From IMG/VR virus record IMGVR_UViG_2531839440_000002: 27,296 nt of DNA; one strand, 5' to 3'. The stretch comes from a virus. Lineage: Duplodnaviria > Heunggongvirae > Uroviricota > Caudoviricetes. Both the position numbers and the translations under genes were made by a program. The notes beneath the pieces were generated by a model. It saw only the letters and a program-made list of their open reading frames with translations. It did no database searches and was not told the DNA's origin. Positions within the stretch are counted from its first letter, which is position 1; the number at the start of each line of letters is the position of its first letter. Shown here in pieces: positions 2,686-22,638 of this stretch.

Positions 2686-2724
2686 CGCAAAGTCTCCGCA
2701 ATTACACGCAAGAAAAAACCGCCA

Positions 2725-4579: not shown

Positions 4580-4751
4580 CTGCTTCTGCTTTCGCCACCA
4601 TCATTTCCAGCTTTTGTGAAAGGGATGCGGCTAACGTATGAAATTCTTCGTCTGTTTCTACTGGTATTGGCACAAACCTGACTCCAATTTGAGCGAGGCT
4701 ATGTGCCATCTCGATACTCGTTCTTAACTCAACGGGAGATGCTTTGTGCAT
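4560..4751 (-). CDS. Hypothetical protein, lambda orf63-like (63 aa)
   Basis: 192-nt ORF, same size and overlap geometry as recalled lambda orf63. Confidence 0.5.
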   Translation of the reverse strand: MHKASPVELRTSIEMAHSLAQIGVRFVPIPVETDEEFHTLAASLSQKLEMMVAKAEADERDQV

Positions 4752-4999: not shown

Positions 5000-5101
5000 A
5001 CCGAAAAGAACGCAGCTTAAATTTCCATTTCACGCTCTTTAACAATAAGCAATCAACTTAACAGACTGATTAACAGTCAATTCAAACTAAAGGAATCAAT
5101 T

Positions 5102-5641: not shown

Positions 5642-5727
5642 CAGGTTCAGAAATGGCGAAAGTCGGTCTGCGGGAACAGAACCGACTTTCAGGTGCAAAT
5701 CGTAACGCACTCATTACGGGAGGAATT

Positions 5728-6657: not shown

Positions 6658-7355
6658 AAAACATCGCCGCACAGATGGTTAACTTTGACCGTGAGCAGAT
6701 GCGCCGGATCGCCAACAACATGCCGGAACAGTACGACGAAAAGCCGCAGGTACAACAGGTAGCGCAGATCATCAATGGTGTGTTCAGCCAGTTACTGGCA
6801 ACTTTCCCGGCGAGCCTGGCTAACCGGGACCAGAACGAACTGAACGAAATCCGCCGCCAGTGGGTGCTGGCTTTCCGGGAAAACGGGATCACCACAATGG
6901 AACAGGTTAACGCAGGAATGCGCGTAGCCCGTCGGCAGAATCGACCATTCCTGCCATCACCCGGGCAGTTTGTTGCCTGGTGCCGGGAAGAAGCATCCGT
7001 TAACGCCGGGCTGCCAAACGTCAGCGAGCTGGTTGATATGGTCTATGAGTATTGTCGGAAGCGTGGCCTGTATCCGGATGCAGAGTCTTATCCGTGGAAA
7101 TCAAACGCGCACTACTGGCTGGTTACCAACCTGTACCAGAACATGCGGGCCAATGCGCTTACTGATGCGGAATTACGGCGCAAGGCTGCCGATGGACTGA
7201 CTTGTATGACCGCGCGAATTAACCGTGGTGAGGCGATACCTGAACCAGTAAAACAACTTCCTGTCATGGGCGGTAGACCTCTAAATCGTGCACAGGCTCT
7301 GGCGAAGATCGCAGAAATCAAAGCGAAGTTCGGACTGAAAGGAGCAACTGTATGA
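6654..7355 (+). CDS. P: Replication protein P (DnaB helicase loader), lambda-type
   Basis: 233-aa ORF MKNIAAQMVNFDREQMRRIANNMPEQYDEKPQVQQVAQIINGVF..., recalled as near-identical to lambda P; start overlaps O stop. Confidence 0.9.
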   Translation: MKNIAAQMVNFDREQMRRIANNMPEQYDEKPQVQQVAQIINGVFSQLLATFPASLANRDQNELNEIRRQWVLAFRENGITTMEQVNAGMRVARRQNRPFLPSPGQFVAWCREEASVNAGLPNVSELVDMVYEYCRKRGLYPDAESYPWKSNAHYWLVTNLYQNMRANALTDAELRRKAADGLTCMTARINRGEAIPEPVKQLPVMGGRPLNRAQALAKIAEIKAKFGLKGATV

Positions 7356-7633
7356 CGGGCAAAGAGGTAATTATTCATTATCTGGAGACGCACAAGAGCT
7401 TCTGTGCGCAGGACGTTGCTGCGGCAACAGGTGTGACAGTAACCTGCATAAATCAGGCAGCAGCTAAAATGGCGCGGGCAGGAATCCTGGTCATTGATGG
7501 TAAGGTCTGGCGAACGGTGTATTACCGGTTCGCTACCAGAGAAGAACGGGAAGGAAAGGTGAGCACGAACCTGATTTTTAAGGAGTGCCGCCAGAGTGCC
7601 GCGATGAAGCGGGTGTTGGCGGTATATGGGTGA
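7352..7633 (+). CDS. ren: Ren-like protein (possibly truncated at C-terminus)
   Basis: 93-aa ORF starting MTGKEVIIHYLETHKSFCAQD with ATGA overlap to P, as for lambda ren; sequence becomes AT-rich immediately after its stop. Confidence 0.65.
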   Translation: MTGKEVIIHYLETHKSFCAQDVAAATGVTVTCINQAAAKMARAGILVIDGKVWRTVYYRFATREEREGKVSTNLIFKECRQSAAMKRVLAVYG

Positions 7634-7927
7634 TTAGTTATTACTTGATTTGATGGTTATCTCGAAAACATCCAATCAAATTTAATGGTTTGCTTTGTGC
7701 GGGGAACTATAACAATGTTTCTAGCTTGGTGCTGTATGAATTAGTGAATTAGTAGGGAATATATCCACACATTGATTAACACAAAAATATTTTAGATATT
7801 AAATGTAACTCAAAGGATGAGTAATAATGGTTGTGTAGCGTATAACAGGATGCTGAGGTAGTATTAAACAATGAATAAATCTGATTGACAAGCACCAGAT
7901 AATACTGCGGGTCAATCATTAGACATG

Positions 7928-7962
7928 AACGCCACTAGTTACTGAGAGTAACTAATGGCGTT
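7928..7962. repeat. Near-perfect 16-bp inverted repeat (hairpin) 3' of the HD-domain gene
   Basis: AACGCCACTAGTTACT / gag / AGTAACTAATGGCGTT with one mismatch; no clear U-tract on either strand. Confidence 0.4.
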
Positions 7963-8003
7963 GTGTTTATAGTTAAGATGTTTTTTAAAACATCAGGGGG
8001 GCT

Positions 8004-8885
8004 CTACTTGTCTTTTTTAATATGATCAATCTCATCATTAAGACATTTATCTATTTTTTTTATTAACACATTAATTTCTTCGGTGTTTTGGAGTTGAGTT
8101 GTCTTAGAAACAAAAACTCGAATAAAGAATTTAACATAGTGATAGGGTTGAAGTACATCGTTATACTTACATAAATCATTTATTGTATACTTGCCGCCTG
8201 TTTCTTTTTTTATTATTTTAGCTTGACTTGTATCGATATCTTTAAAGTTATCTTCAATCTGAAAATCAAGAACCCATTCATCTTCTTTTAAATTATCCTC
8301 AATGATTTTGTTGATTTTCTTAGATATATTTTGTTTATATTTTTTGTATCTGTTGTCGGAAATGTTAACATTAGAAAACGTGTGTTTTTTTTCATATATT
8401 TTTTTCCAAACATTTCTATCAACAATATCTTGAATTATAGCTTGAGAATTTTTATCTAATGTGTTTTTAAGAGTGTTTTCTAAAAACGTTTTGTCTGGGT
8501 TTTCACGATAAAAGTGTTTGATGGACTCAATGAGAGTGTTTTTAGATTTTAAAGAGACAACATCATCAGTTTTTTTTCTAGAACACGCTTTGTTAAGCAT
8601 CGCAGATAGTGCACGATTGGTCTTATGAAAATAAACTTGACTATAAAGCCCACTTCTTGCATTGGCAAATTCTAGTATTGAATCCATACCACTTTCTTTA
8701 TATGCCAGGTAAACACTATTTTCAACTTTCACAGGAATAAATGACATTAATAATCGTCCATAATCATAAATCCCATATTTAACGCCGGAGAAGTAGCTAT
8801 CTCTAAGTAGGTAGTCCATTCTGTCCGCATCTATAGGTGAAGATGATATGATTGAACCTAATAAAGGATATACATTTACTCCCTC
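8004..8885 (-). pseudogene. HD-domain phosphohydrolase (dGTPase/SAMHD1-like), C-terminal fragment displaced by IS1
   Basis: Frame open from 8885 to stop at 8004; contains DADRMDYLLRDSYFSG motif; in frame with the N-terminal fragment once IS1 and one duplication copy are removed. Confidence 0.75.
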
Positions 8886-8940
8886 GGTGATGCTGCCAAC
8901 TTACTGATTTAGTGTATGATGGTGTTTTTGAGGTGCTCCA

Positions 8941-9216
8941 GTGGCTTCTGTTTCTATCAGCTGTCCCTCCTGTTCAGCTACTGACGGGGTGGTGCGTAAC
9001 GGCAAAAGCACTGCCGGACATCAGCGCTATCTCTGCTCTCACTGCCGTAAAACATGGCAACTGCAGTTCACTTACACCGCTTCTCAACCCGGTACGCACC
9101 AGAAAATCATTGATATGGCCATGAATGGCGTTGGATGCCGGGCAACAGCCCGCATTATGGGCGTTGGCCTCAACACGATTTTACGTCACTTAAAAAACTC
9201 AGGCCGCAGTCGGTAA
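8941..9216 (+). CDS. insA: IS1 InsA
   Basis: 91-aa [43 protein letters not shown]..., GTG start. Confidence 0.9.
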
Positions 9217-9638
9217 CCTCGCGCATACAGCCGGGCAGTGACGTCATCGTCTGCGCGGAAATGGACGAACAGTGGGGCTATGTCGGGGCTAAATCGCGCC
9301 AGCGCTGGCTGTTTTACGCGTATGACAGGCTCCGGAAGACGGTTGTTGCGCACGTATTCGGTGAACGCACTATGGCGACGCTGGGGCGTCTTATGAGCCT
9401 GCTGTCACCCTTTGACGTGGTGATATGGATGACGGATGGCTGGCCGCTGTATGAATCCCGCCTGAAGGGAAAGCTGCACGTAATCAGCAAGCGATATACG
9501 CAGCGAATTGAGCGGCATAACCTGAATCTGAGGCAGCACCTGGCACGGCTGGGACGGAAGTCGCTGTCGTTCTCAAAATCGGTGGAGCTGCATGACAAAG
9601 TCATCGGGCATTATCTGAACATAAAACACTATCAATAA
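9135..9638 (+). CDS. insB: IS1 InsB reading frame (transposase made as InsAB' by frameshifting)
   Basis: 167-aa ORF ...[44 protein letters not shown]...; overlaps insA. Confidence 0.85.
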
Positions 9639-9653
9639 GTTGGAGTCATTACC

Positions 9654-10328
9654 TACTCCCTCAATGTTATTTTTAAAATCATATCTTTTATCAACAATTT
9701 TTATAATGCTTTCTGGATTAATAGCCGCTATGTTTTCTTTATAGACATCGTCGTCATTTGATTTATCTTGGGCTTCATTTTTTAATTCTTCAATAATTTC
9801 TTTAATAAAAATACATGATACTTGTTCGTGGGTTAACTTGTCATTATCACTTAAAGATATAATCTTATCGTATTGTTTATTTCCTTCAGTTTTGCATTTT
9901 TCTTTGAAATCTTTTACGGATATTGCAAAACTATCGAATTGGTGGGCAAGTGGGCCATGCCCAACATCGTGTAACAATGCTGCAATACGTAACTCCTGTA
10001 TAAGACTTGAAGGCATTTTTTTTATATCTAAATATAGATCAATGCCCATATTTTTTCGATTGTAAATTAGTGCATTTAAATCAATATTTTTTAATATTTC
10101 ATACGATAAATGCATTACACCGACAGAGTGTTCAAAGCGAGAGTGCATTGCAGAAGGAAATACTTTATATAGAAACGTGTTCTGCCTGATATCTCGTAGT
10201 CGTTGGAATAAAGGATGGTCAATTATCTTTTTTTCTAGCTTAGTTATTCGAATCACTCCATGTATGGGATCTAAAAACTTCCCCAGAAGTAAGTCTTCAA
10301 AGTTCTCAAGTTTGTTTTTGTTTGTCAT
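9654..10328 (-). pseudogene. HD-domain phosphohydrolase (dGTPase/SAMHD1-like), N-terminal fragment interrupted by IS1
   Basis: ATG at 10326-10328; 225 codons up to the IS1 boundary; motifs HSRFEHSVGVMHLS and LLHDVGHGPLAH; the listed ORF 9573-10328 reads 26 codons into IS1 before stopping. Confidence 0.75.
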
Positions 10329-10389
10329 GAGGCTTTCCTTTTGCTGTAGTTATAATACGAAATTTAAATAGTAATGATGTTTATAGTTT

Positions 10390-10418
10390 CAATGTGTTAT
10401 CTAATGGTTAACACATTG
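10390..10418. promoter_or_regulatory. Dyad-symmetric element CAATGTGTTA-N9-TAACACATTG upstream of the HD-domain gene; candidate operator
   Basis: Perfect 10-bp inverted repeat arms read directly, about 60-90 bp 5' of the HD gene start. Confidence 0.3.
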
Positions 10419-10687
10419 TGATGTAGCATATCAATATGGATTCATATGTTCAATTGGTCTGTGGAGTTTAGTTATGAATAAGATTGATTCTGGTAATACT
10501 TTGTAGTTTAAGCTAGAGGCGGGATTCGTGATGTTCAAATCAGTATGTAATGGAGGTTGTGCATTAGTACTTGCTGCTGGAAATTAAAAATAAAGTTGCA
10601 AGTAATCGACGTTTTCCGAGAGGAGGATGTAAGCATCGCTGACCAAAAAGTATCAACGATGCCTGTTTTGTTTTAACTACAAATTAA

Positions 10688-12190
10688 TTAAATTGCATCT
10701 GCAAACTCTGGGATTTTTCGCTCAAGTATGATTGATGAGTTGCTGTTGTCGCTTTTTTTATTTTCATGATTACGAATAGCCAATGACTCATTAAAGTCTT
10801 TTGCGACTGCTGTCTCAATAAATTCAATTTCTGAATCAGAGTGTTTTTTAACAGCTTCTTTGATCTCATCCAGAGTAACATAGAAAAACTCTTTTCTACG
10901 ATTTACAAGATTGACTCTCTTTTTATCGAAGACATCATGTAGTTCTTTTTCTAATGATGGAGCGTCCTCCGAATAAATCATGGCATGCACATCAAAAATA
11001 AAAGGAACAGATGCATCACCAAGCTCATTTACACGGTCTTGTGGATCAAGACGTCGTGTCATGCCTATTTTATAAACATTCTCCCCAAAAGAACCTATGT
11101 TCGAAATAATATAAACATGACCTTGTTTGGTTTGTTGTGCCATGGATAATGCTCTTTGATGCTTTGATTCAGCCTGCGACAAACTCTGTTCTAGTTCGGC
11201 AATGCGATTTTCGAGGCGCTGCTTCATGTCACCAGTAACTTTTTCCATTTCCTTTCTTGCAGCTTCAATTGCTTTTTTATAACGGCGCTCTTCTGCCTCT
11301 GCGTCTTGCATGGCCTTTTCTATTTCTCGTTGTGCACGCTCCTCCTCTCTCATTTGTGCCCTTATTTCTGCCTGTTCTTCTTTTTCTTTCTGTTTTTGCT
11401 CACGATATTCATGGGTAAGCCACAACTCCTCAAGTTTTTTATTAAGGTATTTAGTATTTATATATATGTGATTTTGCTCGTTTAGTTTATTTATGGCCTC
11501 AAATGCCTTTGTGATGCGTTCTTCCATTTTAGTGATATTTTTCCACGTGCAATTACTAATTGCAGCATCACATTCATTATTAAATGCTCTAGTAGTTAGC
11601 CTAATATTTCTGTCTGTCATTTTTTTACCCTCTGCTCGAGAGCCTTCAACAGTCCATTGGGTTGTGCAATATACTGCACCAGAGTGGGTTTTATCCCGCA
11701 GCATTAATTTCTGTTCATCCCTGATGGATTTTATTTTGTTTTTAAATTGCTCTGAATCTTCAAAATTAAAATGAGGTTCGTAAAATCCTAGTTCGGCTAG
11801 TTCAACATCTTCTGAATAAATAGAAATTTGCTTTACTAACTTATCATATATTTCTTTCTTCTCTTTATAAGTTCTTCTTAGTTCTTGGATTTGTTTATTG
11901 ATACCATCCATTTTTTCAATGGTGTTTGTTAGTTCATTATTGGCATTTTCTTTTACTTTTTGGGACTCTTCTTTTATAATGGAGCATTCTTGCTCTGTTT
12001 TCTCAATAAGCTTCTTACATTCCTCTTCCATATTAAAATAATCTGCAAAGCGAGATTTGTATTCTTCATTTTTTTGATTGCTATCACTTAATTCTAATTG
12101 TATTTTTTTGATGCGTTTGATTGCAGCTATATATAGAACAAGAACAACCAATAAAAATATGATTGCAAGTAATAGTGGAGTTTGAGTCAT
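10688..12190 (-). CDS. Membrane-anchored coiled-coil protein with DUF4041-like central region and C-terminal T5orf172 (GIY-YIG-like) domain; candidate defence protein
   Basis: 500 aa; N-terminal helix PLLLAIIFLLVVLVLYIAAI; long K/E-rich heptad segments; C-terminal GHVYIISNIGSFGENVYKIGMTRRLDPQDRVNELGDASVPFIFDVHAMIY...; AT-rich. Confidence 0.8.
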   Translation of the reverse strand: MTQTPLLLAIIFLLVVLVLYIAAIKRIKKIQLELSDSNQKNEEYKSRFADYFNMEEECKKLIEKTEQECSIIKEESQKVKENANNELTNTIEKMDGINKQIQELRRTYKEKKEIYDKLVKQISIYSEDVELAELGFYEPHFNFEDSEQFKNKIKSIRDEQKLMLRDKTHSGAVYCTTQWTVEGSRAEGKKMTDRNIRLTTRAFNNECDAAISNCTWKNITKMEERITKAFEAINKLNEQNHIYINTKYLNKKLEELWLTHEYREQKQKEKEEQAEIRAQMREEERAQREIEKAMQDAEAEERRYKKAIEAARKEMEKVTGDMKQRLENRIAELEQSLSQAESKHQRALSMAQQTKQGHVYIISNIGSFGENVYKIGMTRRLDPQDRVNELGDASVPFIFDVHAMIYSEDAPSLEKELHDVFDKKRVNLVNRRKEFFYVTLDEIKEAVKKHSDSEIEFIETAVAKDFNESLAIRNHENKKSDNSNSSIILERKIPEFADAI

Positions 12191-12616
12191 TCGTGCTATT
12201 CCTTACGGACAATTTAAGACGTTTTGTATTAAATCCTGTTCAATGTGTATGCGGGTGATTGCTACCGCTTACAATCTTCATAATTATCAGTTAGATAGAC
12301 TCGCTAGTAAATAATTTCATTTTTTGCAATATTCTTATTGAATATTTCAATTTATGAAATGAGCTCTTTATCCTTTCAAGGCGAAAGGTTTCTTCTTCGG
12401 AAATATTTGCTCTCGTGTGACGTATAAAGGCCTTTGATTTTTAAAAAACAGTAGGAAATAATATAGTTACAGTCGGCCTGAACACCCGGCGGTGGGGTTG
12501 CGCTAAACGGGGACGTTTATGCGCACATACAATCTAAACTCTCTTCTCCCTTCACAGATGCAGAAATGCACCTGCGATTTTTTGCATCCAACGTTTGACC
12601 TCTGCGGAGGTGAAGC

Positions 12617-13072
12617 ATGAACCTACCACAAGATGGCATCAAATTACATCGTGGCAACTTCACCGCTATCGGCCAGCAGATCCAGCCTTATCTGGAGGAC
12701 GGAAAATGCTTTCGCATGGTGCTTAAACCGTGGCGTGAGAAACGCAGTCTTTCCCAGAGTGCACTCAGCCACATGTGGTACAGCGAAATCAGTGAATACC
12801 TTATCAGCAGGGGTAAAACGTTCGCCACTCCAGCTTGGGTAAAAGATGCTCTCAAACACACATATCTCGGTTATGAAACCAAAGACCTGGTTGATGTCGT
12901 AACCGGTGATATCACCACTATCCAGTCGTTACGCCATACCTCCGACCTTGATACCGGAGAGATGTATGTCTTCCTGTGTAAGGTTGAAGCCTGGGCGATG
13001 AATATTGGCTGCCACCTGACTATTCCGCAGAGCTGCGAGTTCCAGCTGCTGCGTGATAAGCAGGAGGCGTAA
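12617..13072 (+). CDS. ybcN: YbcN-like lambdoid nin-region protein (151 aa)
   Basis: [58 protein letters not shown]... recalled as DLP12 YbcN family; GGAGG SD upstream. Confidence 0.65.
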
Positions 13073-13242
13073 TGGCTACACCGCTTATTCGTGTCATGAA
13101 CGGACACATCTACAAAATACCAAATCGTCGTAAGCGTAGGCCTGAGCTGAAACCATCCGAAATACCAACACTGCTCGGATATACCGCCAGCCTGGTTGAT
13201 AAAAAATGGTTGCGACTGGCAGCAAGGAGGAATCATGGCTGA
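13072..13242 (+). CDS. ninE: NinE-like protein (56 aa)
   Basis: ATG overlaps previous stop (TAATG); [56 protein letters not shown]; below ORF-track cutoff. Confidence 0.6.
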   Translation: MATPLIRVMNGHIYKIPNRRKRRPELKPSEIPTLLGYTASLVDKKWLRLAARRNHG

Positions 13243-13525
13243 TTTGAGAAAAGCAGCGCGTGGTCGGGAATGCCAGGTAAGAATCCCTGGCGTATGTAAT
13301 GGCAATCCTGAAACGTCTGTACTGGCACATATCCGGCTGGCTGGATTGTGCGGTACCGGTATCAAACCGCCAGACCTGATTGCCACCATTGCATGTTCTG
13401 CCTGTCACGACGAGATCGACCGTCGCACGCATTTTGTTGACGCTGGATATGCAAAAGAATGCGCGCTGGAAGGTATGGCGAGAACGCAGGTTATCTGGCT
13501 GAAAGAGGGGGTAATTAAGGCGTGA
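13235..13525 (+). CDS. ybcO: YbcO-like Cys-rich putative nuclease (DUF1364 family)
   Basis: 96 aa from [42 protein letters not shown]...; CxxxxxxxC and CSACH motifs; sits before rusA as in DLP12-type prophages. Confidence 0.65.
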
Positions 13526-13884
13526 ATACCTACAATATCACATTACCCTGGCCGCCGAGCAATAATCGCTATTACCGCCATAATCGCGGGCGCACGCACA
13601 TCAGCGCAGAGGGGCAGGCATACCGCGAAAACGTCGCCCGAATCATTAAAAACGCAATGCTGGATATCGGCCTGGCTATGCCTGTGAAAATCCGCATTGA
13701 GTGTCACATGCCGGATCGCCGTCGCCGTGACCTGGATAATCTACAAAAGGCCGCTTTTGACGCACTCACCAAAGCAGGTTTCTGGTTGGATGATGCTCAG
13801 GTCGTTGATTACCGCGTTGTGAAGATGCCGGTTGTCAAAGGTGGAAAGCTGGAACTGACCATCACTGAACAGGGAGATGAATGA
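13522..13884 (+). CDS. rusA: RusA Holliday-junction resolvase
   Basis: 120-aa [45 protein letters not shown]...[10 protein letters not shown], recalled RusA sequence. Confidence 0.85.
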
Positions 13885-14021
13885 TGTTTGAGTTTTATAT
13901 GGCAGAACTTCTTCGCCACCGCTGGATGCGCCTGCGCTTATATCGTTTCCCCGGTTCTGTTTTGACCGATTACCGAATACTGAAGAATTACGCCAAAACA
14001 CTGACAGGAGCAGGAGTATGA
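13881..14021 (+). CDS. ylcG: YlcG-like small protein (46 aa)
   Basis: [46 protein letters not shown]; overlaps rusA stop; below ORF-track cutoff. Confidence 0.5.
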
Positions 14022-14106
14022 AGTCAGAGATAACAATCAACTAATACTGTTTTGTTGATTTTTGCTTGTAATTGGCGTTCTGGTCTGAGTTTTGTGGAGT
14101 AAGTTG

Positions 14107-14484
14107 ATGCGTGATATTCAGATGGTTCTTGAGCGTTGGGGAGCGTGGGCGGCTAATAATCATGAAGATGTGACCTGGTCGTCCATTGCCGCCGGTTTTA
14201 AGGGATTAATTCCTTCAAAAGTAAAATCTCGCCCACAATGTTGTGACGATGACGCGATGATCATTTGCGGGTGCATGGCCCGTCTGAAAAAGAACAACAG
14301 CGATTTGCATGATTTATTGGTGGACTATTATGTCGGCGGCATGACTTTTATGGCGCTTGCACGTAAGCATGGGCGATCTGATTGTTGGGTTGGCAGGATG
14401 CTCCAGAAAGCTGAGGGCGTAGTGGAGGGTATGCTGATGGTGTTGGATCTCCGATTGGAGATGGATGCTGATTGTTCGAAATAA
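14107..14484 (+). CDS. Late-gene antiterminator Q (phage 82 / DLP12 QuuD-type)
   Basis: ATG at 14107 preceded by GGAG; [36 protein letters not shown]...; the ORF-track start at 14092 is a TTG. Confidence 0.75.
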
Positions 14485-14584
14485 TTAAAGGAAAAGTTGC
14501 TGTCTGATTCTCATTAGTCTAACATTTTAAATGTTGGAATCGCAACGTAGTTATTATCATATAACAGCTTGTTTCCTGATTTAG

Positions 14585-14611
14585 CCAGCCTCCCCAAAGG
14601 CTGGTTTTTTT
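14585..14611 (+). terminator. Rho-independent terminator about 100 nt after Q (tR'-like)
   Basis: Stem CCAGCCT / AGGCTGG, loop CCCCAA, followed by a run of seven T on the + strand. Confidence 0.5.
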
Positions 14612-14639
14612 CTAATAAGTATTATTTCGGGTAGGGATT

Positions 14640-15111
14640 TTATTGTTTAACCCATAATAATTCATTGACATTGAATCCCAACTTTTGAGCGGTTCGCACA
14701 TAGTCTGCTTTTACTTTATCTGGAATAGTTGGGGTCCTTGCCAGAATCCATAGGTATTCTCTGTTCGGACCACTGACAAGAGCATACTTATACTCATCAT
14801 CCAGTTTGATTACATTATAGCCACCATAGAAGGGGCCAAAAAACGAAACCTTCAACGCTGCAGTTTTAGTATCTCCAGTAAAGTATGCTTTACCTTCGCT
14901 CTCGCTCCATTTATTTTTCGTTGGATCGTATCCACGGTTAAGTACACGAATCCCTCCGTCGTTCCGTTTTCCATAAGTAGCGCTGACCTGTTCCAGACCA
15001 CGTTCGAATCGGTTCTCGAGGCGAGCTATTTCATACCACTTTCCGAGGTAGCGGTTGGCGTCAAAATTTGTAATCGGCTGCACACCTTTAGGTGGTGTCG
15101 GGACCTTACAT
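14640..15111 (-). pseudogene. Blc-type bacterial lipocalin, main body separated from its start and signal peptide by an IS66-family insertion
   Basis: NFDANRYLGKWYEIARLENRFERGLEQVSATY...KVSFFGPFYGGYNVI matches recalled Blc; the reported TTG start at 15120-15122 lies inside the IS terminal repeat. Confidence 0.8.
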
Positions 15112-15141
15112 GTAAGCGTCAACGGAGCACCGTATTGACGC

Positions 15142-16754
15142 TTATTTATTGGTGAGTACTACGTTCCATGGCAGGAGTTCGTCAACACGGTTGGAGGGCC
15201 ATTCCGGCAGTACGCTCAGAATATGGCGCAGATACGCTTCCGGATCGATACCGTTCAGACGGCAGGTGCCGATCAGCCCGTACAGCAGTGCTCCACGCTC
15301 GCCGCCGTGATCGCTACCGAAGAACACGTAATTTTTCTTTCCGAGACAGACTGCACGAAGCGCTCTTTCCGCTGTGTTATTGTCCACCTCCGCCAGACCG
15401 TCATCACTGTAATAACAGAGGGCGTCCCACTGATTCAGTACATAGCTGAACGCTTCACCCAGTCTGGATTTTTTCGACAGCGTGCCATTCTTCTCCACCA
15501 TCCATTCATGCAGCGACGTCAGTAACGCTTTGCTTCGCTGCTGCCTGGCTGCAAGACGCTCTGACTCTGGTAATCCCCGTATTTCATCCTCGATGGCGTA
15601 CAGTTCACTGATTCGCTTCAGGGCTTCTTCTGCCGTCGCACTTTTGCTGCTGATGTATACATCGTGGATTTTTCTCCGGGCATGAGCCCAGCACGCAACT
15701 TCTGTCAGCGCACTACCTTCACGTTCTGCACTGAACAGCCTGTCATAACCTGTGAACGCATCCGCCTGCAGGATACCCCGGAAGGGGCGGAGGTGTTGCT
15801 CCGGGTGTTTCCCCTGCCGGTTCGATGAGTACGCGAACCAGACCGCCGGAGGAGATGACGAACCCGCATTGCGATCATCCCGGACATACGTCCAGATGCG
15901 CCCTGTTTTCGTCTTTTTCAGGCCCGGTGCCAGTACCTTTACCGGTGTGTCGTCAGTGTGAAGCTTGCGGGTATTCATCACATAACGGTACAGGGCATCA
16001 TTCAGCGGCGTCATTAACTGGCAGCACGCGTCAACCCAGTTGGAGAGTAATGCACGGCTCAGTTCGACACCCTGTCGGGCAAAGATTTCACTCTGACGAT
16101 ACAGTGGCAGGTGTTCGCAGTATTTTCCCGTTAACACGCGGGCAAGTAATCCGGGGCCCGCGATACCACGCTCTATCGGGCGGGACGGCGCCGGTGCTTC
16201 AACGATGCAGTCACATTTTGTACAGGCTTTTTTACCCGTTCTGTGCGGATCACTTTCAGGGCGCTGCTCACCAGTTCCAGTTGTTCTGCGCTGACTTCCC
16301 CCAGATAATCCAGCTCACCGCCACACTCCGGGCAACAGCTTTCTTCAGGCTCCAGGCGGTATATTTCACGGGGAAGGTGTGCCGGTAACGGACGACGATG
16401 GCGCGACTGTCGCAACTGGCGGGGAACCAGCGGGTCATCCTCACGCCCACTGTAACGATCGCTTTCCTGCTCGCGTTGTTTCAGCAGGGCTTCAGCCTGT
16501 TCAACCTCACGACGCAGTTTTTCAGAACGGGTTCCGAACAGCATCCGGCGCAGTTTTTCTATCTGAGCCCGCAGATGCTCTATTTCTCGCTCATCTTCTT
16601 CGATCTTTTCTTCGGCACGTGCCAGTGCAGAGCGCAGGAAGGCCTCCGTCTCTTCAACCAGACTCAGTTGCTGGTCTTTCTGACGGAGGGCTTCAGCCTG
16701 CTCAGAGAGCAGCCTTTCCAGCTCAGCGATGCGAATGAGGTATTTCTGACTCAT
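15142..16754 (-). pseudogene. IS66-family transposase TnpC, split into two reading frames by a frameshift
   Basis: N-terminal ORF 16173-16754 (coiled-coil plus CxxC zinc-finger region) and C-terminal ORF 15142-16137 (DDE region); span length 1613 is not a multiple of 3. Confidence 0.75.
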
Positions 16755-16784
16755 GGCCGTTTTTATAATCCGGCCCGGCGTTTT

Positions 16785-17135
16785 TTACAACATTGTCAGT
16801 GCGTTAAGGCGGGATGTTTTTGGCTGACGCCAGTCCAGCTTATCGAGGAGCATTGCCAGTTGCGAGCGGGTAATGGATATCTTACCGTCACGCACCGCAG
16901 GCCAGATAAACTGACCTTCCTCAAGGCGTTTGGTGAACAGGCACAGACCATCAGCATCAGCCCACAGGATTTTAATCGTGTCTCCCCGTCGGCCACGGAA
17001 GATAAACAGGTGACCGGAGAAGGGGTTATCATCCAGCACATGCTGTATCTGCTCCCCCAGACCGTTGAAGGATTTACGCATATCAGTAACGCCGGCAACG
17101 AGCCAGATACGGGTACCTGATGGGAGTGAAATCAT
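16785..17135 (-). CDS. IS66-family TnpB (orf2)
   Basis: 116-aa ORF MISLPSGTRIWLVAGVTDMRKSFNGLGEQIQHVLDDNPFSGHLFIFRGRRGDTIKILWAD... Confidence 0.85.
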   Translation of the reverse strand: MISLPSGTRIWLVAGVTDMRKSFNGLGEQIQHVLDDNPFSGHLFIFRGRRGDTIKILWADADGLCLFTKRLEEGQFIWPAVRDGKISITRSQLAMLLDKLDWRQPKTSRLNALTML

Positions 17136-17566
17136 CGTCCCCTCCCGGTCAGCTCACGGATCAACACCGTGAGCAGCTCTGGTGAAGGATTTTCCAGCAT
17201 CATTTTACCGTAATGGAATTCCGCATGGCAGGAAGCTGCACAAGCAACTGATAATGCCTCCGGAGCAGGAGCATCTGTAGCACAGCGCGGGGTGTCGATA
17301 AGTTCCACTGGAACCAGAGTCGGAGAGGCCGGAAAAGATTGTGATACTGTAGGGCCTACAATAGTTGGAGGCATTCTACGGGAAATACGTCCTTCTCTTT
17401 GCCAGAGGCGTAGCCATTTAAAAATCAGGTTGTTATCAACGCCATGTTCCCGGGCCAGTTGTGCAACATTGGCATTTGGTTTCGAAGCCAGTTCAACCAT
17501 ATGAAGTTTAAATTCATTAGAAAATATCCGGCGGGTTCCGGAGCGCCAGTCTGTAGGTTTATCCAT
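17132..17566 (-). CDS. IS66-family TnpA (orf1)
   Basis: ATG at 17564-17566 (track start 17569 is TTG); MDKPTDWRSGTRRIFSNEFKLHMVELASKPNANVAQLAREHGV...; overlaps tnpB start. Confidence 0.8.
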   Translation of the reverse strand: MDKPTDWRSGTRRIFSNEFKLHMVELASKPNANVAQLAREHGVDNNLIFKWLRLWQREGRISRRMPPTIVGPTVSQSFPASPTLVPVELIDTPRCATDAPAPEALSVACAASCHAEFHYGKMMLENPSPELLTVLIRELTGRGR

Positions 17567-17651
17567 CAATAGAACTCCGTCTAATTTAGAAGGAGCTCTA
17601 ATTTAGTCTGCAAGGAGCAGGTGTTACAGACGGCATTGGCTTTACGCTTAC

Positions 17652-17712
17652 CCTTACATGCTATAAGAGTGAAAGAGAGTGCAATGCCAGTCAACACAGG
17701 CCATAACTTCAT
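17652..17712 (-). pseudogene. N-terminal fragment of the lipocalin gene (signal peptide with lipobox), cut off by the IS66-family insertion
   Basis: ATG at 17710-17712; MKLWPVLTGIALSFTLIAC then runs into the duplication; joined to 15111 downwards gives ...LIACKVPTPPKG... in frame. Confidence 0.55.
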
Positions 17713-17904
17713 AATAAATCCTGTACTTTTGATAGTTGAGAGTAAGTATGAAAGATAGATGATTACGACCGATCACTTAAAGAACTTTCATACTATATTA
17801 GGAATAGTCCATAACAGAAAAATTGTCAGTGATGACGCCAGAAAGGCAATTTATTCCGTGCACTACACAGTTTATGTGTTAATGAATTAGTCAAGGGGGA
17901 GGAT

Positions 17905-18864
17905 ATGATAAAAAAACCTGTGATTGGAATCAGCGGTTGTCTGGCCGGTTCTGCTGTTCGTTTTGATGGTGGTCACAAAAGAGCTGACTTTTTAATGGAC
18001 AAATTAGTGGAATGGGTAACATTCAGACCAGTATGTCCGGAAATGGCTATAGGGCTGCCAGTTCCGCGTCCTGCTCTACGTCTTGTGCGCTCGACGCAAG
18101 GAAATATACGGATGTGTTTCAGCCACGACCAGAATGAGGATGTGACAGAGAGAATGACAGAGTTTAGTCGTTCTTATATGGACAAATTAAAGGATGTATC
18201 GGGGTTTGTGGTTTGTGCTAAATCTCCCAGCTGTGGCATGGAGCGCGTGCGTGTCTATGATGAAAATGGTAATCGAGGTCGTAAAGATGGAGTGGGACTA
18301 TTTACGAGCACTTTGATGGAAAAGTTTTCCTGGCTACCGGTTGAAGAGGATGGGCGATTACATGATCCAGTGCTTCGTGAGAATTTTGTTGAAAGAGTTT
18401 TTGCTTTGCATGAGCTCAATCACCTTTACAAGGAGAAATTATCAAGAAGAGAGTTATTAGCTTTTCATAGTCGTTATAAGCTTCAGTTGTTGGCGCATAG
18501 TCAGGCAGGCTATAAAGATATGGGACCATTTGTGGCTGCAATACACGAGTGGGCGGACCTTGAATCATACTTTGAGGTGTATCGTGATAAGCTGATGGCG
18601 ATTCTCAGAAAACCTGCATCACGTAAAAATCACACGAATGTGCTGATGCATATACAGGGGTATTTTAGTAACTACTTAAGTACACGCCAGCGTAAAGAGT
18701 TGAGCGAGGTTATACTTAACTATCGTTCTGGCACATTACCTCTTCTTGCGCCGTTGACTCTGCTGAAGCATTATCTGGGTGAGTATCCTAATGATTACTT
18801 GCTTACACAGAATTACTTCGATCCCTATCCGGACGAACTGGCTCTAAGACTGATGGTAAATTAA
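17905..18864 (+). CDS. DUF523 (TudS-like) / DUF1722 fusion protein
   Basis: 319-aa ORF; N-terminus MIKKPVIGISGCLAGSAVRFDGG with further conserved Cys (RPVCPE, CAKSPSCG) resembles DUF523; C-terminal half resembles DUF1722; GGGGGAGG SD upstream. Confidence 0.65.
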   Translation: MIKKPVIGISGCLAGSAVRFDGGHKRADFLMDKLVEWVTFRPVCPEMAIGLPVPRPALRLVRSTQGNIRMCFSHDQNEDVTERMTEFSRSYMDKLKDVSGFVVCAKSPSCGMERVRVYDENGNRGRKDGVGLFTSTLMEKFSWLPVEEDGRLHDPVLRENFVERVFALHELNHLYKEKLSRRELLAFHSRYKLQLLAHSQAGYKDMGPFVAAIHEWADLESYFEVYRDKLMAILRKPASRKNHTNVLMHIQGYFSNYLSTRQRKELSEVILNYRSGTLPLLAPLTLLKHYLGEYPNDYLLTQNYFDPYPDELALRLMVN

Positions 18865-19020
18865 TTGTATGCGATATCATCCAAAAGGATGAGTTCCTGC
18901 ATGCAGGATATTTACAATCGTAAAAACTACACTATGATACCCAGAGTGTCAGTTTGTATAAAAACTCTGTTTACGCTGAAGAAACCATTGAGATGCAACT
19001 TAAAGTTGGTGTATTTGCCC

Positions 19021-19926
19021 CTATATTTCCAGACACCTGTTATCACTTAACCCATTACTGGCCCGCTGCCGTAGATATTCCCGTGGCGAGCGATAACCCA
19101 GTGCACTATGCGGATGCCATTCGTTATAATGCTCGAACGCCTCTGCAAGATTCTTTGCTGCCGTTAACCCGTCTGGTTTGGGCATGATACTGATGTAATC
19201 ACGCTTTATCGTTTTCACGAAGCTCTCTGCTATGCCGTTACTCTCCGGACTCCGCACCGCCGTGTTCTTCGGTTCAAGTCCCAACATCCGAGCGAACTGG
19301 CGTGTTTCATTAGCCCGGTAGCATGAACCATTATCCGTCAGCCACTCCACTGGAGATGTCGGAAGCTCGCTGCCGAAGCGGCGTTCCACCGCTCCCAGCA
19401 TGACGTCCTGTACTGTTTCACTGTCGAAGCCGCCCGTAGTGACCGCCCAGTGCAGTGCCTCACGGTCACAGCAGTCCAGCGCGAACGTGACTCGCAGTTT
19501 TTCTCCGTTATCACAGCGGAACTCGAACCCGTCAGAGCACCATCGTTGATTGCTTTCTTTCACGGCCACTTTGCCAGTATGTGCCCGTTTCGATGGCGGT
19601 ACAGCGGTTTTTCGCTCAAGCAACAGCGCATTCTGGCGCATGATCCGGTAAACACGTTTGGCATTGATAGCAGGCATACCATCAAGTTCGGCCTGTCTGC
19701 GAAGCAGCGCCCATACCCGACGATAACCATACGTGGGCAGCTCTCCGATAACATGGTGTATACGGAGAAGCACATCCGTATCATCTGAGTGACGGCTGCG
19801 GCGACCATCTTTCCAGTCATCGGTTCGTCTGAGAATGACGTGCAACTGCGCACGCGACACCCGGAGACAACGGCTGACTAAGCTTACTCCCCATCCCCGG
19901 GCAATAAGGGCGCGTGCGCTATCCAC
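19021..19926 (-). CDS. insD: IS2 transposase OrfB
   Basis: 301-aa ORF with DDE-type region ...WCSDGFEF...DNGSCY... Confidence 0.9.
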
Positions 19927-20249
19927 TTTTTTGCACGCCCGTATTCAACGGCTTCTTTAAGGAGTTCATTTTCCATCGTTTTTTTGCCGAGCAGGCGCTG
20001 GAGTTCTTTAATCTGCTTCATGGCAGCAGCAAGTTCAGAGGCAGGAACGACCTGCTCTCCTGCGGCCACAGCAGTAAGACTTCCCTCCTGGTATTGCTTG
20101 CGCCAGAGAAATAACTGGCTGGCTGCCACACCGTGTTGCCGGGCAACAAGGGAGACCGTCATTCCCGGTTCAAAGCTCTGCTGAACAATAGCGATCTTTT
20201 CCTGTGTAGTACGCCGTCTGCGTTTCTCCGGCCCTAAGACATCAATCAT
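19884..20249 (-). CDS. insC: IS2 OrfA (helix-turn-helix)
   Basis: 121 aa from [47 protein letters not shown]...; the track ORF begins 15 codons upstream. Confidence 0.85.
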
Positions 20250-20551
20250 CTGTTCTCCAATGACTAGTCTAAAAACTAGTATTAAGACTATCACTTATTT
20301 AAGTGATATTGATTGTCTGGAGATTCAGGGGGCCAGTCTAGTTGGTAAACATGCCAGTCAAAATATATAATATTATGATTCCACGCAGCTATATATAATA
20401 TAACAGATTGGTTTAATAATTTGTCTTTGTGAGTTAAATACATAATTTTATACTTGTGATGCAATGAGATTTTCCTTATTGTTGAACTGGCGAATATTGA
20501 TTTTCCACCTATACTTACCTGGTGTAACCCCAATGATATCAGGTGGATAAT

Positions 20552-21277
20552 ATGCCATACATATGTTCTATCATTTTGGTGTTGAACTCGTTTGATGTCC
20601 GAATTGGTAAAGAAGATATTTTATTTAAAAAAGGAAGTGCTGTTCTCATTGATTACAATTTAAAAGATTTTTTTTCATCAAATATAGATCATGCAATGAT
20701 CGTAGATGTTGAAGAGAAAACAGTTAATGATTTCTTTAAAAGCAACACACTCTCACCTTTTTCTGTAAGAAGGTTTTATCCGGCATACTTGATGGTGGAA
20801 TGTGAAGATTTTTCATTGTTAAAGAACTTGATTGCATGCTTGAATTGTGATGGCAGAACTGTGGATTTTGTTAGAAATCAAATATCACTTGCATGTCTTG
20901 CTATCTTATCTTCAGAGAAAATAGTGCAAAGTTTTTTATTTGGATGTCTTAATAGTTTAGGAAGTAAAGTTAAGGCTATTATTCACACGGATATATCTGC
21001 AGCATGGAGACTTTGTGATATATCTTCAAGACTGTATCTGAGTGAAAGTCTGTTAAAAAGAAAATTAAAGCACGAAGGCTTATCATTTAGTAAGTTAATT
21101 CTTGAAGAGCGAATGGTGATGGCGGAAAGGTTATTAAGCTACAATTTATATTCTGTTGGAAAAGTTACTGAGATATGCGGTTATGAAAACACGTCATATT
21201 TTGTAAGTGTTTTCAGAAGATATTTTGGTGTTCCTCCCCATCAATATTCATCAAGATTTTTTTTAGAAAAGACATGA
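20552..21277 (+). CDS. AraC/XylS-family transcriptional regulator (prophage cargo)
   Basis: C-terminal helix-turn-helix region ...KVTEICGYENTSYFVSVFRRYFGVPPHQY typical of AraC family; AT-rich; ATG at 20552 after AGGTGG (track start 20543 is GTG). Confidence 0.75.
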   Translation: MPYICSIILVLNSFDVRIGKEDILFKKGSAVLIDYNLKDFFSSNIDHAMIVDVEEKTVNDFFKSNTLSPFSVRRFYPAYLMVECEDFSLLKNLIACLNCDGRTVDFVRNQISLACLAILSSEKIVQSFLFGCLNSLGSKVKAIIHTDISAAWRLCDISSRLYLSESLLKRKLKHEGLSFSKLILEERMVMAERLLSYNLYSVGKVTEICGYENTSYFVSVFRRYFGVPPHQYSSRFFLEKT

Positions 21278-21470: not shown

Positions 21471-21686
21471 ATGAAATCCATGGATAAGTTAACAACGGGT
21501 GTCGCCTATGGCACCTCAGCAGGTAGTGCCGGTTACTGGTTTTTACAGCTGCTCGATAAAGTCACGCCCTCACAGTGGGCAGCAATAGGTGTGCTGGGTA
21601 GCCTGGTATTTGGCCTGCTGACGTACCTGACAAACCTTTATTTCAAGATTAAAGAAGATAAGCGCAAGGCTGCGAGAGGTGAATAA
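21471..21686 (+). CDS. Class II holin / pinholin (phage 21 S21-type) with dual-start motif MKSM
   Basis: 71 aa [26 protein letters not shown]...; two TM segments; GGAGGTGAGG SD; resembles recalled S21/EssD. Confidence 0.85.
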
Positions 21687-22183
21687 TGCCTCCATCATTA
21701 CGAAAAGCCGTTGCTGCTGCTATTGGTGGCGGGGCTATTGCTATAGCATCTGTGCTAATCACTGGCCCAAGTGGTAACGATGGTCTGGAGGGTGTGAGAC
21801 ATAATCCTTACAAAGACATAGTTGGTGTATGGACTGTATGTTACGGGCATACAGGAAAAGACATCATTCCTGGTAAAACGTATACCGAAGCAGAGTGCAA
21901 AGCCCTCCTGAATAAAGACCTTGCCACTGTCGCCAGACAAATTAACCCGTACATCAAAGTCGATATACCGGAAACAACGCGCGGCGCTCTTTACTCGTTC
22001 GTCTACAACGTGGGTGCTGGCAATTTCAGAACATCGACGCTTCTTCGCAAAATAAACCAGGGTGATATTAAAGGCGCATGTGATCAGCTACGGCGCTGGA
22101 CATACGCTGGCGGTAATCAATGGAAAGGACTGATGACTCGCCGTGAGATTGAGCGTGAAGTCTGTTTGTGGGGGAAACAATGA
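21686..22183 (+). CDS. Endolysin (lysozyme), SAR-endolysin type
   Basis: 165 aa; N-terminal [18 protein letters not shown] signal-anchor-release-like segment; catalytic region ...[23 protein letters not shown]...; start overlaps holin stop (TAATG). Confidence 0.85.
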
Positions 22184-22638
22184 GCAGAGTAACCGCGATT
22201 ATCTCCGCTCTGGTTATCTGCATCATCGTCTGCCTGTCATTGGCTGTTAATCATTACCGTGATAACGCAATCGCCTACAAGGAGCAGCGCGATAACAAGG
22301 CCAGTGAACTGGAGAAGGCGAACGCCACCATCGCTGACATGCGGAAGCGTCAACGTGATGTAGCAGAACTCGACGCAAGATACACAAAGGAGCTTGCTGA
22401 TGCTAACGCGACTATCGAAAGTCTCCGTGCTGATGTTTCTGCTGGGCGTAAGCGCCTGCAAGTCGCCGCCACCTGTGCAAAGTCAACGACCGGAGCCAGC
22501 GGCATGGGCGATGGAGAAAGCCCAGGACTTACAGCAGATGCTGAACTCAATTATTACCGTCTCCGAAGTGGAATCGACAAGATAACCGCGCAGGTTAACT
22601 ACCTGCAGGAATACATCAGGACGCAATGCCTGAAATAA
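22180..22638 (+). CDS. Rz-type inner-membrane spanin subunit
   Basis: ATG at 22180 overlaps endolysin stop; N-terminal [20 protein letters not shown] then coiled-coil. Confidence 0.8.
22394..22585 (+). CDS. Rz1-type outer-membrane lipoprotein spanin subunit, embedded in Rz in the +1 frame
   Basis: Lipobox LGVSAC followed by proline-rich [13 protein letters not shown]; exact start Met uncertain. Confidence 0.6.

What the first reader, a model, noticed from the sequence alone, without database searches (positions are those of the whole stretch)
14640..17712. Lipocalin gene split in its signal peptide by an IS66-family element
The 8-bp duplication CCTTACAT flanks the element and the upstream fragment encodes MKLWPVLTGIALSFTLIAC, a lipoprotein signal peptide that joins the lipocalin body in frame once the IS is removed. 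The IS tnpC is itself frameshifted, so the element is probably immobile.
Basis: seen in the sequence. Interest (0 to 1): 0.45.

Follow-up and report, generated by a model that had tools for sequence, protein, structure and literature searches.

The report
IS-disrupted prophage lipocalin gene
A known mobile element (ISEc47, IS66 family) has jumped into a Blc-type lipocalin gene carried by a decaying lambda-like prophage of E. coli, cutting the export signal off the protein body; this is real but an ordinary, recurrent kind of gene inactivation.

Summary
CCTTACAT occurs only twice in the window, at 15104-15111 and 17652-17659. These copies abut a 2540-bp element (15112-17651) whose ends both begin GTAAGCGT. 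The element encodes tnpA, tnpB and tnpC on the minus strand.

Removing the element and one repeat copy gives an in-frame 174-aa lipoprotein, MKLWPVLTGIALSFTLIAC|KVPTPP.... It passes NCBIfam's Blc model and is 64% identical to crystallised E. coli Blc. The reconstructed 1164-bp empty site is 100% identical to E. coli TOK-001. At least 80% of it is present in 1014 of 5426 complete E. coli genomes, between the prophage Q antiterminator gene and a ybgA-like gene.

The element is 99.7% identical to intact ISEc47 copies. Its only coding lesion is a 1-base loss in an A7 run of tnpC (16228-16233). Once that is repaired, TnpC is 100% identical to an intact transposase.

"Probably immobile" therefore needs qualifying. 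The lesion could be a homopolymer sequencing error, and the ends are intact, so mobilisation in trans is possible.

This exact insertion was not found elsewhere. Other strains carry the same gene split by IS3 or IS1. Verdict: confirmed, already-known kind, low interest.

The parts
14640..15111 (-). 3' part of the prophage blc-like lipocalin gene. It holds the mature domain Val21-Gln174 and the stop codon, plus the left copy of the duplicated Cys19-Lys20 codons. It has lost its promoter, start codon and signal peptide.
   Evidence: ORF list; in-silico excision; Pfam Lipocalin_2 and NCBIfam Blc; 64% identity to E. coli Blc structures
15104..15111 (.). Left copy of the 8-bp target-site duplication CCTTACAT
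   Evidence: Only two copies in the window, both at the element ends
15112..17651 (-). ISEc47-like insertion sequence (IS66 family), 2540 bp. Its genes lie on the minus strand, the same orientation as the lipocalin gene.
   Evidence: 99.7% identity over 100% of its length to an intact 2541-bp copy in NZ_CP042885.1, annotated as an IS66-like element ISEc47 family transposase
15112..15135 (.). Terminal inverted repeat at the tnpC-proximal end, beginning GTAAGCGTCAACGG
   Evidence: Alignment of the two ends; the 40-bp end is identical to the intact reference copy
17628..17651 (.). Terminal inverted repeat at the tnpA-proximal end. It reads GTAAGCGTAAAGCC on the minus strand.
17132..17566 (-). tnpA (HTH_Tnp_1 domain). 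It has 2 amino-acid differences from the reference copy.
   Evidence: Pfam; reference annotation; comparison
16785..17135 (-). tnpB (IS66 Orf2-like accessory protein), identical to the reference
   Evidence: Pfam TnpB_IS66 at 3e-36
16173..16754 (-). tnpC N-terminal fragment (leucine-zipper and part of the zinc-finger domain). It ends prematurely after the frameshift.
   Evidence: Pfam LZ_Tnp_IS66 and zf-IS66; alignment to the intact copy
16228..16233 (.). Frameshift site: a run of 6 A (minus strand) where intact copies have 7. It falls at TnpC codon ~174, just before the CTKC half of the zinc finger.
   Evidence: The exact 80-mer with A6 is found in only 9 of 3394 matching records.
15142..16137 (-). 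tnpC C-terminal fragment (DDE catalytic domain and the IS66 C-terminal element), out of frame with the N-terminal part
   Evidence: Pfam DDE_Tnp_IS66 at 4e-93 and DDE_Tnp_IS66_C
17652..17659 (.). Right copy of the target-site duplication CCTTACAT
17652..17712 (-). 5' part of the lipocalin gene: the start codon, the complete lipoprotein signal peptide MKLWPVLTGIALSFTLIA, the lipobox Cys19 and Lys20. It now continues into the IS as a 43-aa ORF (17581-17712).
   Evidence: lipoprotein signal-peptide patterns match
14583..14612 (+). Terminator-like hairpin plus T-run between the Q gene (14092-14484) and the 3' end of the lipocalin gene. It sits where a lambdoid tR' would be expected. This is context only and not part of the insertion.
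   Evidence: Consensus scan; the positional interpretation is inference

Best explanation
An ISEc47 copy (IS66 family, DDE transposase) transposed into the blc-like lipocalin 'moron' of a defective lambdoid prophage. The prophage sits at the lambda attachment site of an E. coli chromosome, next to ybhC.

The element made the 8-bp staggered target cut typical of the family, within ...GCA TGT AAG G|TC... Repair duplicated CCTTACAT.

The promoter, start codon, signal peptide and lipobox Cys now lie 2548 bp from the rest of the gene. The upstream piece can at most give a 43-residue precursor. The lipocalin barrel (residues 21-174) has no start codon or export signal. The gene is therefore a null allele for an outer-membrane lipoprotein.

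The insertion looks recent. The flanks are 100% identical to an uninterrupted allele, the duplication is perfect, and the IS differs from active copies by 6 substitutions and 1 deleted base. As sequenced, the element cannot make full-length TnpC. It is non-autonomous unless the missing A is a sequencing error.

Shown here: the anatomy, the in-frame restoration, the empty site, the family assignments and the nature of the frameshift. Inferred: loss of lipocalin function, recency, and the mobility status.
For: - The duplication and the inverted ends lie exactly at the element boundaries, and excision restores a 174-aa ORF.
- The reconstructed empty site is 100% identical over 1164 bp to E. coli TOK-001, where it is annotated as a lipocalin family protein between an antiterminator Q gene and a YbgA family gene. 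At least 80% of it is covered in 1014 of 5426 genomes.
- The element is 99.7% identical to an intact ISEc47 copy.
- Pfam domains match IS66 TnpA, TnpB and TnpC. The repaired TnpC hits NCBIfam transpos_IS66 at 450 bits.
- The frameshift is A7 to A6. The repaired TnpC is 100% identical in protein sequence to the intact reference, tnpB is identical, and the 40-bp ends are identical.
- The lipocalin matches NCBIfam Blc above the cut-off, Pfam Lipocalin_2 and Blc crystal structures at 64% identity. Its lipobox is LIAC.
- An 8-bp duplication is the reported IS66 footprint (PMC6778807).
- blc is a described moron in more than half of 19 sequenced lambda-type gut coliphages (PMC6969025).
- The window backbone is 100% identical to the TOK-001 prophage flanked by ybhC.
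- The same gene is split by IS3 or IS1 at other positions in other strains, and RefSeq annotates the IS3-split copies (L004, L005) as incomplete pseudogenes.
Against: - No expression or protein data exist, so loss of function is inferred from anatomy alone.
- This exact junction was not found in 5426 complete E. coli genomes, in GTDB species representatives or in JGI metagenome contigs. No independent assembly corroborates it, and the only support is the window sequence itself.
- The homopolymer frameshift cannot be told apart from a sequencing error without reads.
- A TTG-initiated ORF (14640-15122) that starts inside the IS end could in principle give a signal-less cytoplasmic lipocalin. I saw no obvious ribosome-binding site on reading the sequence.
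Confidence: 0.93

Rival explanations
1. The insertion is real, but the tnpC frameshift is a homopolymer sequencing or assembly error. On this reading the element is a fully functional, recently arrived ISEc47 copy.
For: - The lesion is a single-base contraction of an A7 run, the commonest error type for long-read and pyrosequencing data (general knowledge).
- Every other tnpC difference from an intact copy is synonymous, tnpB is identical and the termini are identical.
- The A6 form is sporadic: 9 of 3394 records match the 80-mer at 99% identity or better, which for 80 bases means exactly. The six listed are scattered over unrelated strains and plasmids.
Against: Homopolymer runs are also genuine mutational hot spots. 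No other obvious homopolymer frameshifts turned up in the window genes examined: the backbone is 100% identical to TOK-001 over more than 8 kb. IS2 and IS1 show their usual gene arrangements.
Confidence: 0.3
2. The apparent insertion is an assembly artefact. A repeated IS was placed wrongly inside the lipocalin gene during assembly, and the gene is intact in the organism.
For: ISEc47-like sequences are multi-copy, with a median of 3 places per genome that has any. Such repeats complicate assembly. The junction is not seen in any other collection searched.
Against: A misjoin would not create a perfect 8-bp direct duplication of target sequence at exactly the two IS termini, which is the length expected for this family. 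Two other IS elements in the window also carry their family-typical duplications: IS1 with 9 bp and IS2 with 5 bp. That indicates a correctly resolved assembly.
Confidence: 0.02
3. The insertion rewires the gene rather than simply killing it. Either the 43-aa upstream ORF is made as a small lipopeptide, or read-out from the IS drives a signal-less lipocalin from the TTG at 15122.
For: The upstream fragment keeps its native 5' region, start codon, complete signal peptide and lipobox, and continues for 24 codons into the IS. The IS genes and the lipocalin body are co-oriented, so tnpC read-through transcripts would cover the body.
Against: No evidence of expression. No promoter-like match is positioned to drive the body from the IS end. 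Neither hybrid product is recorded as a called gene anywhere in the 153-billion-gene index. Other strains carry plain IS3 or IS1 disruptions of the same gene at unrelated positions, and the IS3-split copies are annotated as pseudogenes. That fits neutral decay rather than selection for a particular fusion.
Confidence: 0.04

Closest known systems
ISEc47 (IS66 family insertion sequence of E. coli; ISEc43 is a close relative)
   Same: 99.6-99.7% nucleotide identity over the full length. It shares the tnpA-tnpB-tnpC organisation, termini beginning GTAAGCG, an 8-bp target duplication, and a length of 2540 bp against 2541 bp.
   Different: One A is missing from the A7 run in tnpC, which splits the 537-aa transposase into 193-aa and 331-aa ORFs. 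There are two amino-acid changes in TnpA. The name comes from RefSeq annotation of near-identical copies; ISfinder itself was not consulted.
E. coli outer-membrane lipoprotein Blc (bacterial lipocalin; PDB 1QWD, 2ACO, 3MBT)
   Same: The reconstructed protein aligns end to end, at 64% identity over 154 residues. It has a lipoprotein signal peptide with a lipobox Cys, and passes NCBIfam NF007786 and Pfam Lipocalin_2.
   Different: It is a prophage-borne paralogue located between the Q antiterminator gene and the lysis genes, not the chromosomal blc. In this window it is interrupted and presumably non-functional.
blc moron of lambda-type temperate coliphages (Mathieu et al. 2020, PMC6969025)
   Same: A lipocalin gene carried as an accessory gene by lambdoid phages. 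It is reported in more than 50% of 19 sequenced gut lambda-type phages. At least 80% of the reconstructed site, which includes the whole gene, is present in 1014 of 5426 complete E. coli genomes, next to an antiterminator Q gene in every listed record.
   Different: Here the carrier is a degraded prophage remnant. It has a Nu1::tail-fibre fusion and three IS elements, and the moron itself is split.
Other IS-disrupted alleles of the same lipocalin gene in RefSeq E. coli genomes
   Same: The same gene and the same prophage slot are interrupted by mobile elements. IS3 lies at two different positions in strains 2020S05-013 and F1005. IS1 lies within or beside the gene in N1193 and EEC_W5; the exact IS1 positions were not resolved. 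ISEc43 lies 5 bp beyond the stop codon in strain 600029, with the duplication GGATTTTA.
   Different: The element, the position or both differ. The ISEc47 insertion at codon 20/21 was not found in any of those genomes.

Membership tests
IS66 family insertion sequence | Three consecutive genes, tnpA (HTH), tnpB (IS66 Orf2-like) and tnpC (DDE transposase with leucine-zipper and zinc-finger N-terminus) | tested here: met
   Pfam HTH_Tnp_1, TnpB_IS66, LZ_Tnp_IS66, zf-IS66, DDE_Tnp_IS66 and DDE_Tnp_IS66_C, in that order on the minus strand. The repaired TnpC hits NCBIfam transpos_IS66 at 450.5 bits against a cut-off of 180.
IS66 family insertion sequence | 8-bp direct target-site duplication | tested here: met
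   CCTTACAT at 15104-15111 and 17652-17659. 8 bp is reported for IS66 (PMC6778807).
IS66 family insertion sequence | Imperfect terminal inverted repeats beginning 5'-GTAAGCG (family hallmark recalled from Han et al. 2001, which could not be read here) | tested here: met
   Both ends begin GTAAGCGT and have scattered further matches. That this is a family hallmark rests on my own knowledge.
IS66 family insertion sequence | Uninterrupted tnpC reading frame, which is needed for autonomy but not for family membership | tested here: not met
   A 1-base deletion in the A7 run at 16228-16233 splits tnpC. It may be a sequencing error.
ISEc47 (specific element) | Near-identity of nucleotide sequence to the named element | tested here: met
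   99.7% over 2540 bp to copies that RefSeq labels 'IS66-like element ISEc47 family transposase'.
Bacterial lipocalin / outer-membrane lipoprotein Blc | Lipocalin_2 domain covering the mature protein and a score above the curated Blc model cut-off | tested here: met
   PF08212 at 7.2e-44, residues 35-174. NF007786 at 315.9 bits against a cut-off of 267, positions 1-174 of 176.
Bacterial lipocalin / outer-membrane lipoprotein Blc | Type II (lipoprotein) signal peptide with a lipobox cysteine | tested here: met
   MKLWPVLTGIALSFTLIAC matches two published-style lipoprotein signal patterns. The residue after the Cys is Lys, not Asp. No dedicated predictor such as SignalP or LipoP was available.
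Bacterial lipocalin / outer-membrane lipoprotein Blc | Eight-stranded beta-barrel that binds fatty acids or lysophospholipids | not tested
   Inferred only, from 64% identity to crystallised Blc. No structure prediction or ligand test was run because the assignment was not in doubt.
Lambdoid prophage moron (accessory gene between Q and the lysis cassette) | Location in a lambdoid late-region slot, transcribed independently of the phage late operon | tested here: met
   Q antiterminator at 14092-14484, lysozyme at 21686-22183 and Rz at 22168-22638. The lipocalin lies on the opposite strand. The same arrangement is annotated in TOK-001. Independent transcription is inferred from orientation.

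The most novel reading that the evidence does not exclude
The interval around the prophage lipocalin gene, from tR' to ybgA, might be a preferred landing zone for IS66-family and other IS elements. Two independent, co-oriented IS66-family insertions lie about 480 bp apart in different strains, and there are also IS3 and IS1 hits. If so, the insertion pattern would reflect a target feature such as local DNA structure, or selection to silence the moron or block phage late transcription, rather than neutral decay. Alternatively, the retained signal-peptide ORF could be expressed as a small new lipopeptide.
Probability: 0.05. Interest if true: 0.3.

Novelty: already known. Interest (0 to 1): 0.08.

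Why it matters
It matters little beyond correct annotation. The two lipocalin fragments and the two tnpC fragments should be annotated as pseudogenes, not as separate small genes. The element can serve as a strain-specific marker, because the junction is absent from 5426 complete E. coli genomes. It adds one more example of IS-driven erosion of accessory genes in a cryptic lambdoid prophage. No open question becomes testable because of it.

Tried and rejected
1. I searched for the same insertion elsewhere.
- Both junctions were run against 5426 complete E. coli genomes. The only full-coverage hit was strain 600029. It proved to be a different event, with ISEc43 inserted 5 bp past the lipocalin stop codon.
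- An exact 32-mer junction scan of GTDB species representatives and of JGI metagenome contigs found nothing.
- Exact-product look-ups of the two hybrid ORFs found nothing.

2. I tried to read Han et al. 2001 (IS679/IS66 family) by DOI and by PMC id. It is not held. The GTAAGCG hallmark and the requirement for all three genes therefore rest on my own recollection.

3. I considered whether the A-run could be a programmed frameshift site. I rejected this because the intact reference copy has a single continuous 537-aa tnpC. The window copy would also need a +1 shift, not a -1 shift, to be rescued.

4. I considered an assembly artefact. I rejected it because of the perfect family-typical duplication, and because IS1 and IS2 in the same window also carry correct duplications.

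5. The promoter and terminator consensus scan of 14400-18000 gave nothing that changes the picture.

6. No structure prediction or large protein-database search was run, because sequence-level assignments were unambiguous.
Full report
**1. Checking the observation**

Reading 14300-18500 and listing ORFs shows, on the minus strand:
- a 160-aa ORF (14640-15122) whose product is lipocalin-like from residue 5 onward;
- four ORFs with transposase character;
- a 43-aa ORF (17581-17712) that begins MKLWPVLTGIALSFTLIAC.

A script found CCTTACAT exactly twice in the 27,296-bp window, at 15104-15111 and 17652-17659, and never on the other strand. The sequence between the copies (15112-17651, 2540 bp) begins GTAAGCGT and ends with its reverse complement. 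Two fixed 8-mers agree by chance with probability of about 1.5e-5.

Deleting 15112-17659 gives a continuous 174-codon ORF plus stop: MKLWPVLTGIALSFTLIAC KVPTPPKGVQPITNF...WVKQ*.

One refinement. On the coding strand the duplication reads A-TGT-AAG-G. The element therefore sits between Lys20 and Val21, two codons after the lipobox cysteine. The signal peptide is separated from the protein body rather than cut internally.

**2. Independent confirmation from a natural empty site**

The 1164-bp in-silico excision product, with flanks, was searched against 5426 complete E. coli genomes.
- It is 100% identical to strain TOK-001. There the region is annotated as antiterminator Q family protein, lipocalin family protein (minus strand) and YbgA family protein.
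- At least 80% of it is covered in 1014 genomes.

This is the strongest evidence that the window carries a simple insertion into a pre-existing intact gene.

**3. What the inserted element is**

The 2540 bp match intact 2541-bp copies at 99.6-99.7% over their full length. RefSeq annotates those copies as 'IS66-like element ISEc47 family transposase', with tnpB and an upstream 'transposase' gene.

Pfam assigns:
- HTH_Tnp_1 to the first gene (17132-17566);
- TnpB_IS66 to the second (16785-17135);
- LZ_Tnp_IS66 and zf-IS66 to 16173-16754;
- DDE_Tnp_IS66 and DDE_Tnp_IS66_C to 15142-16137.

An 8-bp duplication is the footprint reported for IS66 (PMC6778807). From my own knowledge of Han et al. 2001, which is not held in the library, termini beginning GTAAGCG are a hallmark of the family. 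From the same source, all three genes of the related IS679 are needed for transposition.

**4. The frameshift**

Global alignment with the intact copy shows six substitutions and one deleted base. The A7 run in tnpC is A6 here, which reads T6 on the + strand at 16228-16233.

Restoring the A gives a TnpC whose protein sequence is 100% identical to the intact reference. tnpB is identical, TnpA has two substitutions, and both 40-bp termini are identical. The break falls at about codon 174, between the CPEC and CTKC halves of the zinc finger. It separates the DNA-binding N-terminus from the DDE domain.

The exact 80-mer carrying A6 is rare. Nine of 3394 records match at 99% or better, which for 80 bases means exactly. 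The six listed are scattered across unrelated strains and plasmids. That pattern fits recurrent homopolymer slippage, whether biological or technical.

As sequenced, the copy cannot make full-length transposase.
- a homopolymer miscall cannot be excluded without reads;
- the lesion must be very recent;
- the termini are intact and related elements are multi-copy in E. coli, with a median of 3 matching places per carrying genome, so movement in trans is conceivable.

**5. What the interrupted gene is**

The reconstructed protein:
- matches Pfam Lipocalin_2 at 7e-44;
- scores 315.9 bits against NCBIfam NF007786, 'outer membrane lipoprotein Blc', over positions 1-174 of 176, with a cut-off of 267;
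- aligns to the E. coli Blc crystal structures 3MBT, 1QWD and 2ACO at E about 1e-68, with 99 of 154 residues identical (64%).

Its N-terminus satisfies two lipoprotein signal-peptide patterns, with lipobox L-I-A-C followed by Lys. By the usual +2 rule (established knowledge), that predicts sorting to the outer membrane. It is therefore a Blc paralogue, not the chromosomal blc.

**6. Genomic context**

- Window 1-4906 is 100% identical to the TOK-001 region that contains ybhC and a lambda-type integrase. The integrase at 1419-2489 has the lambda arm-binding domain.
- Downstream lie YdaT-like, O-like and P-like replication genes, then YbcO, RusA and Q.
- Next come the lipocalin on the opposite strand, a YbgA-like protein with 2-thiouracil-desulfurase and DUF1722 domains, and an AraC/YdeO-like regulator.
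- Lysozyme and Rz follow.

The lipocalin thus occupies the accessory-gene slot between Q and the lysis cassette of a lambdoid prophage, inserted beside ybhC in the gal-bio interval that holds the lambda attachment site. blc has been described as a moron present in more than half of 19 lambda-type gut coliphages (PMC6969025).

The prophage is a remnant. ORF 25279-26712 fuses the first 78 residues of Nu1 to tail-fibre collar and repeat domains, so the head and tail genes have been deleted. TOK-001 shows the same truncation.

**7. Mechanism and consequence**

A DDE transposase made an 8-bp staggered cut in the target, and repair duplicated CCTTACAT.

Shown: the native 5' region, start codon, signal peptide and Cys19-Lys20 are now 2548 bp from Val21 onward. 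The upstream piece runs 24 codons into the IS and stops. The body has no in-frame ATG upstream and only a TTG inside the IS end.

Inferred: no exported, lipidated lipocalin can be made, so this is a null allele.

Also inferred: because the moron lies antisense to the late operon, and the prophage is already defective, no phage function is likely to be affected. A promoter and terminator consensus scan added nothing decisive. It did flag a terminator-like hairpin at 14583-14612, between Q and the lipocalin 3' end, where tR' would be expected.

**8. Is this particular event seen elsewhere, and is it unusual?**

Neither junction occurs in the 5426 genomes, in GTDB representatives or in metagenome contigs. 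The hybrid ORFs are not on record. The allele therefore appears private to the source strain.

The kind of event is common. Sampling the ranking of matches to the reconstructed locus and inspecting examples shows the same gene or locus interrupted as follows:
- IS3 at two different positions (strains 2020S05-013 and F1005, annotated as incomplete pseudogenes);
- IS1 within or beside it (N1193, EEC_W5; exact positions not resolved);
- ISEc43 inserted 5 bp beyond the stop codon, with the duplication GGATTTTA (strain 600029).

The window itself holds two more IS elements with perfect duplications. This is ordinary IS-mediated erosion of a cryptic prophage.

**9. Rivals**

- (a) The frameshift is a sequencing error and the IS is intact. 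This is plausible, at about 0.3, and does not alter the main conclusion.
- (b) Assembly artefact. This is very unlikely given the perfect family-typical duplication.
- (c) Neofunctional fusion products. There is no support for these.

**10. Verdict**

The element, the gene and the type of event are all already known. Interest is low (0.08).

Noticed in passing
window 8004-10328 (IS1 at 8886-9653; duplications at 8877-8885 and 9654-9662): A second IS-split gene. A 768-bp IS1 with a perfect 9-bp duplication TACTCCCTC interrupts an HD-domain gene on the minus strand. Excision restores an in-frame 515-aa protein with only weak similarity to dGTP triphosphohydrolases (PADLOC dGTPase E=0.002; TIGR01353 far below its cut-off). 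It sits next to a defence gene, so it may be an uncharacterised defence component.
   Followed up: partly
window 10688-12190 (-): A 500-aa protein with DUF4041 and T5orf172 domains matches the PADLOC model PD-Lambda-1 end to end (E=1.5e-198). This is an anti-phage defence gene carried in the prophage early region.
   Followed up: partly
window 19010-20340: A 1331-bp IS2 (IS3 family; orfA 19884-20294 and orfB 19021-19926, minus strand) with a 5-bp duplication GTTGG. It is inserted in the intergenic region between the ybgA-like gene and the AraC/YdeO-like regulator gene, and so lies in the path of phage late transcription.
   Followed up: yes
window 25279-26712 (+): A chimeric ORF. The first 78 residues are terminase small subunit Nu1, fused to tail-fibre collar and fibre-repeat domains. 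A deletion has removed the whole head-tail morphogenesis region, so the prophage is a defective remnant. TOK-001 shows the same truncated genes.
   Followed up: partly
window 1-4906, 12838-15112, 17652-19010 versus L002 (E. coli TOK-001): The prophage backbone is 100% identical to that of TOK-001. TOK-001 lacks window 4907-12837, which holds the replication genes, the HD gene, PD-Lambda-1 and IS1. It has IS2 at a different site (window ~13272) and another IS66-family element at window ~23612. Closely related copies of one prophage have therefore taken independent IS hits and deletions.
   Followed up: partly
L003 1160-3700 (E. coli strain 600029): An ISEc43 (IS66 family), in the same orientation as the window's element, is inserted 5 bp downstream of the intact lipocalin stop codon. 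Its 8-bp duplication is GGATTTTA, corresponding to window 14627-14634. It is a separate IS66-family event about 480 bp from the one studied.
   Followed up: yes
window 17905-18864 (+) and 20543-21277 (+): Two further accessory genes lie in the Q-to-lysis slot. One is a YbgA-like protein with 2-thiouracil desulfurase and DUF1722 domains. The other is an AraC-family regulator most similar to YdeO/GadX, but far below those models' cut-offs. Their roles in a prophage are unknown.
   Followed up: no
window 5102-5641 (+): A 179-aa protein with a YdaT_toxin domain lies immediately upstream of the O-like and P-like replication genes.
   Followed up: no
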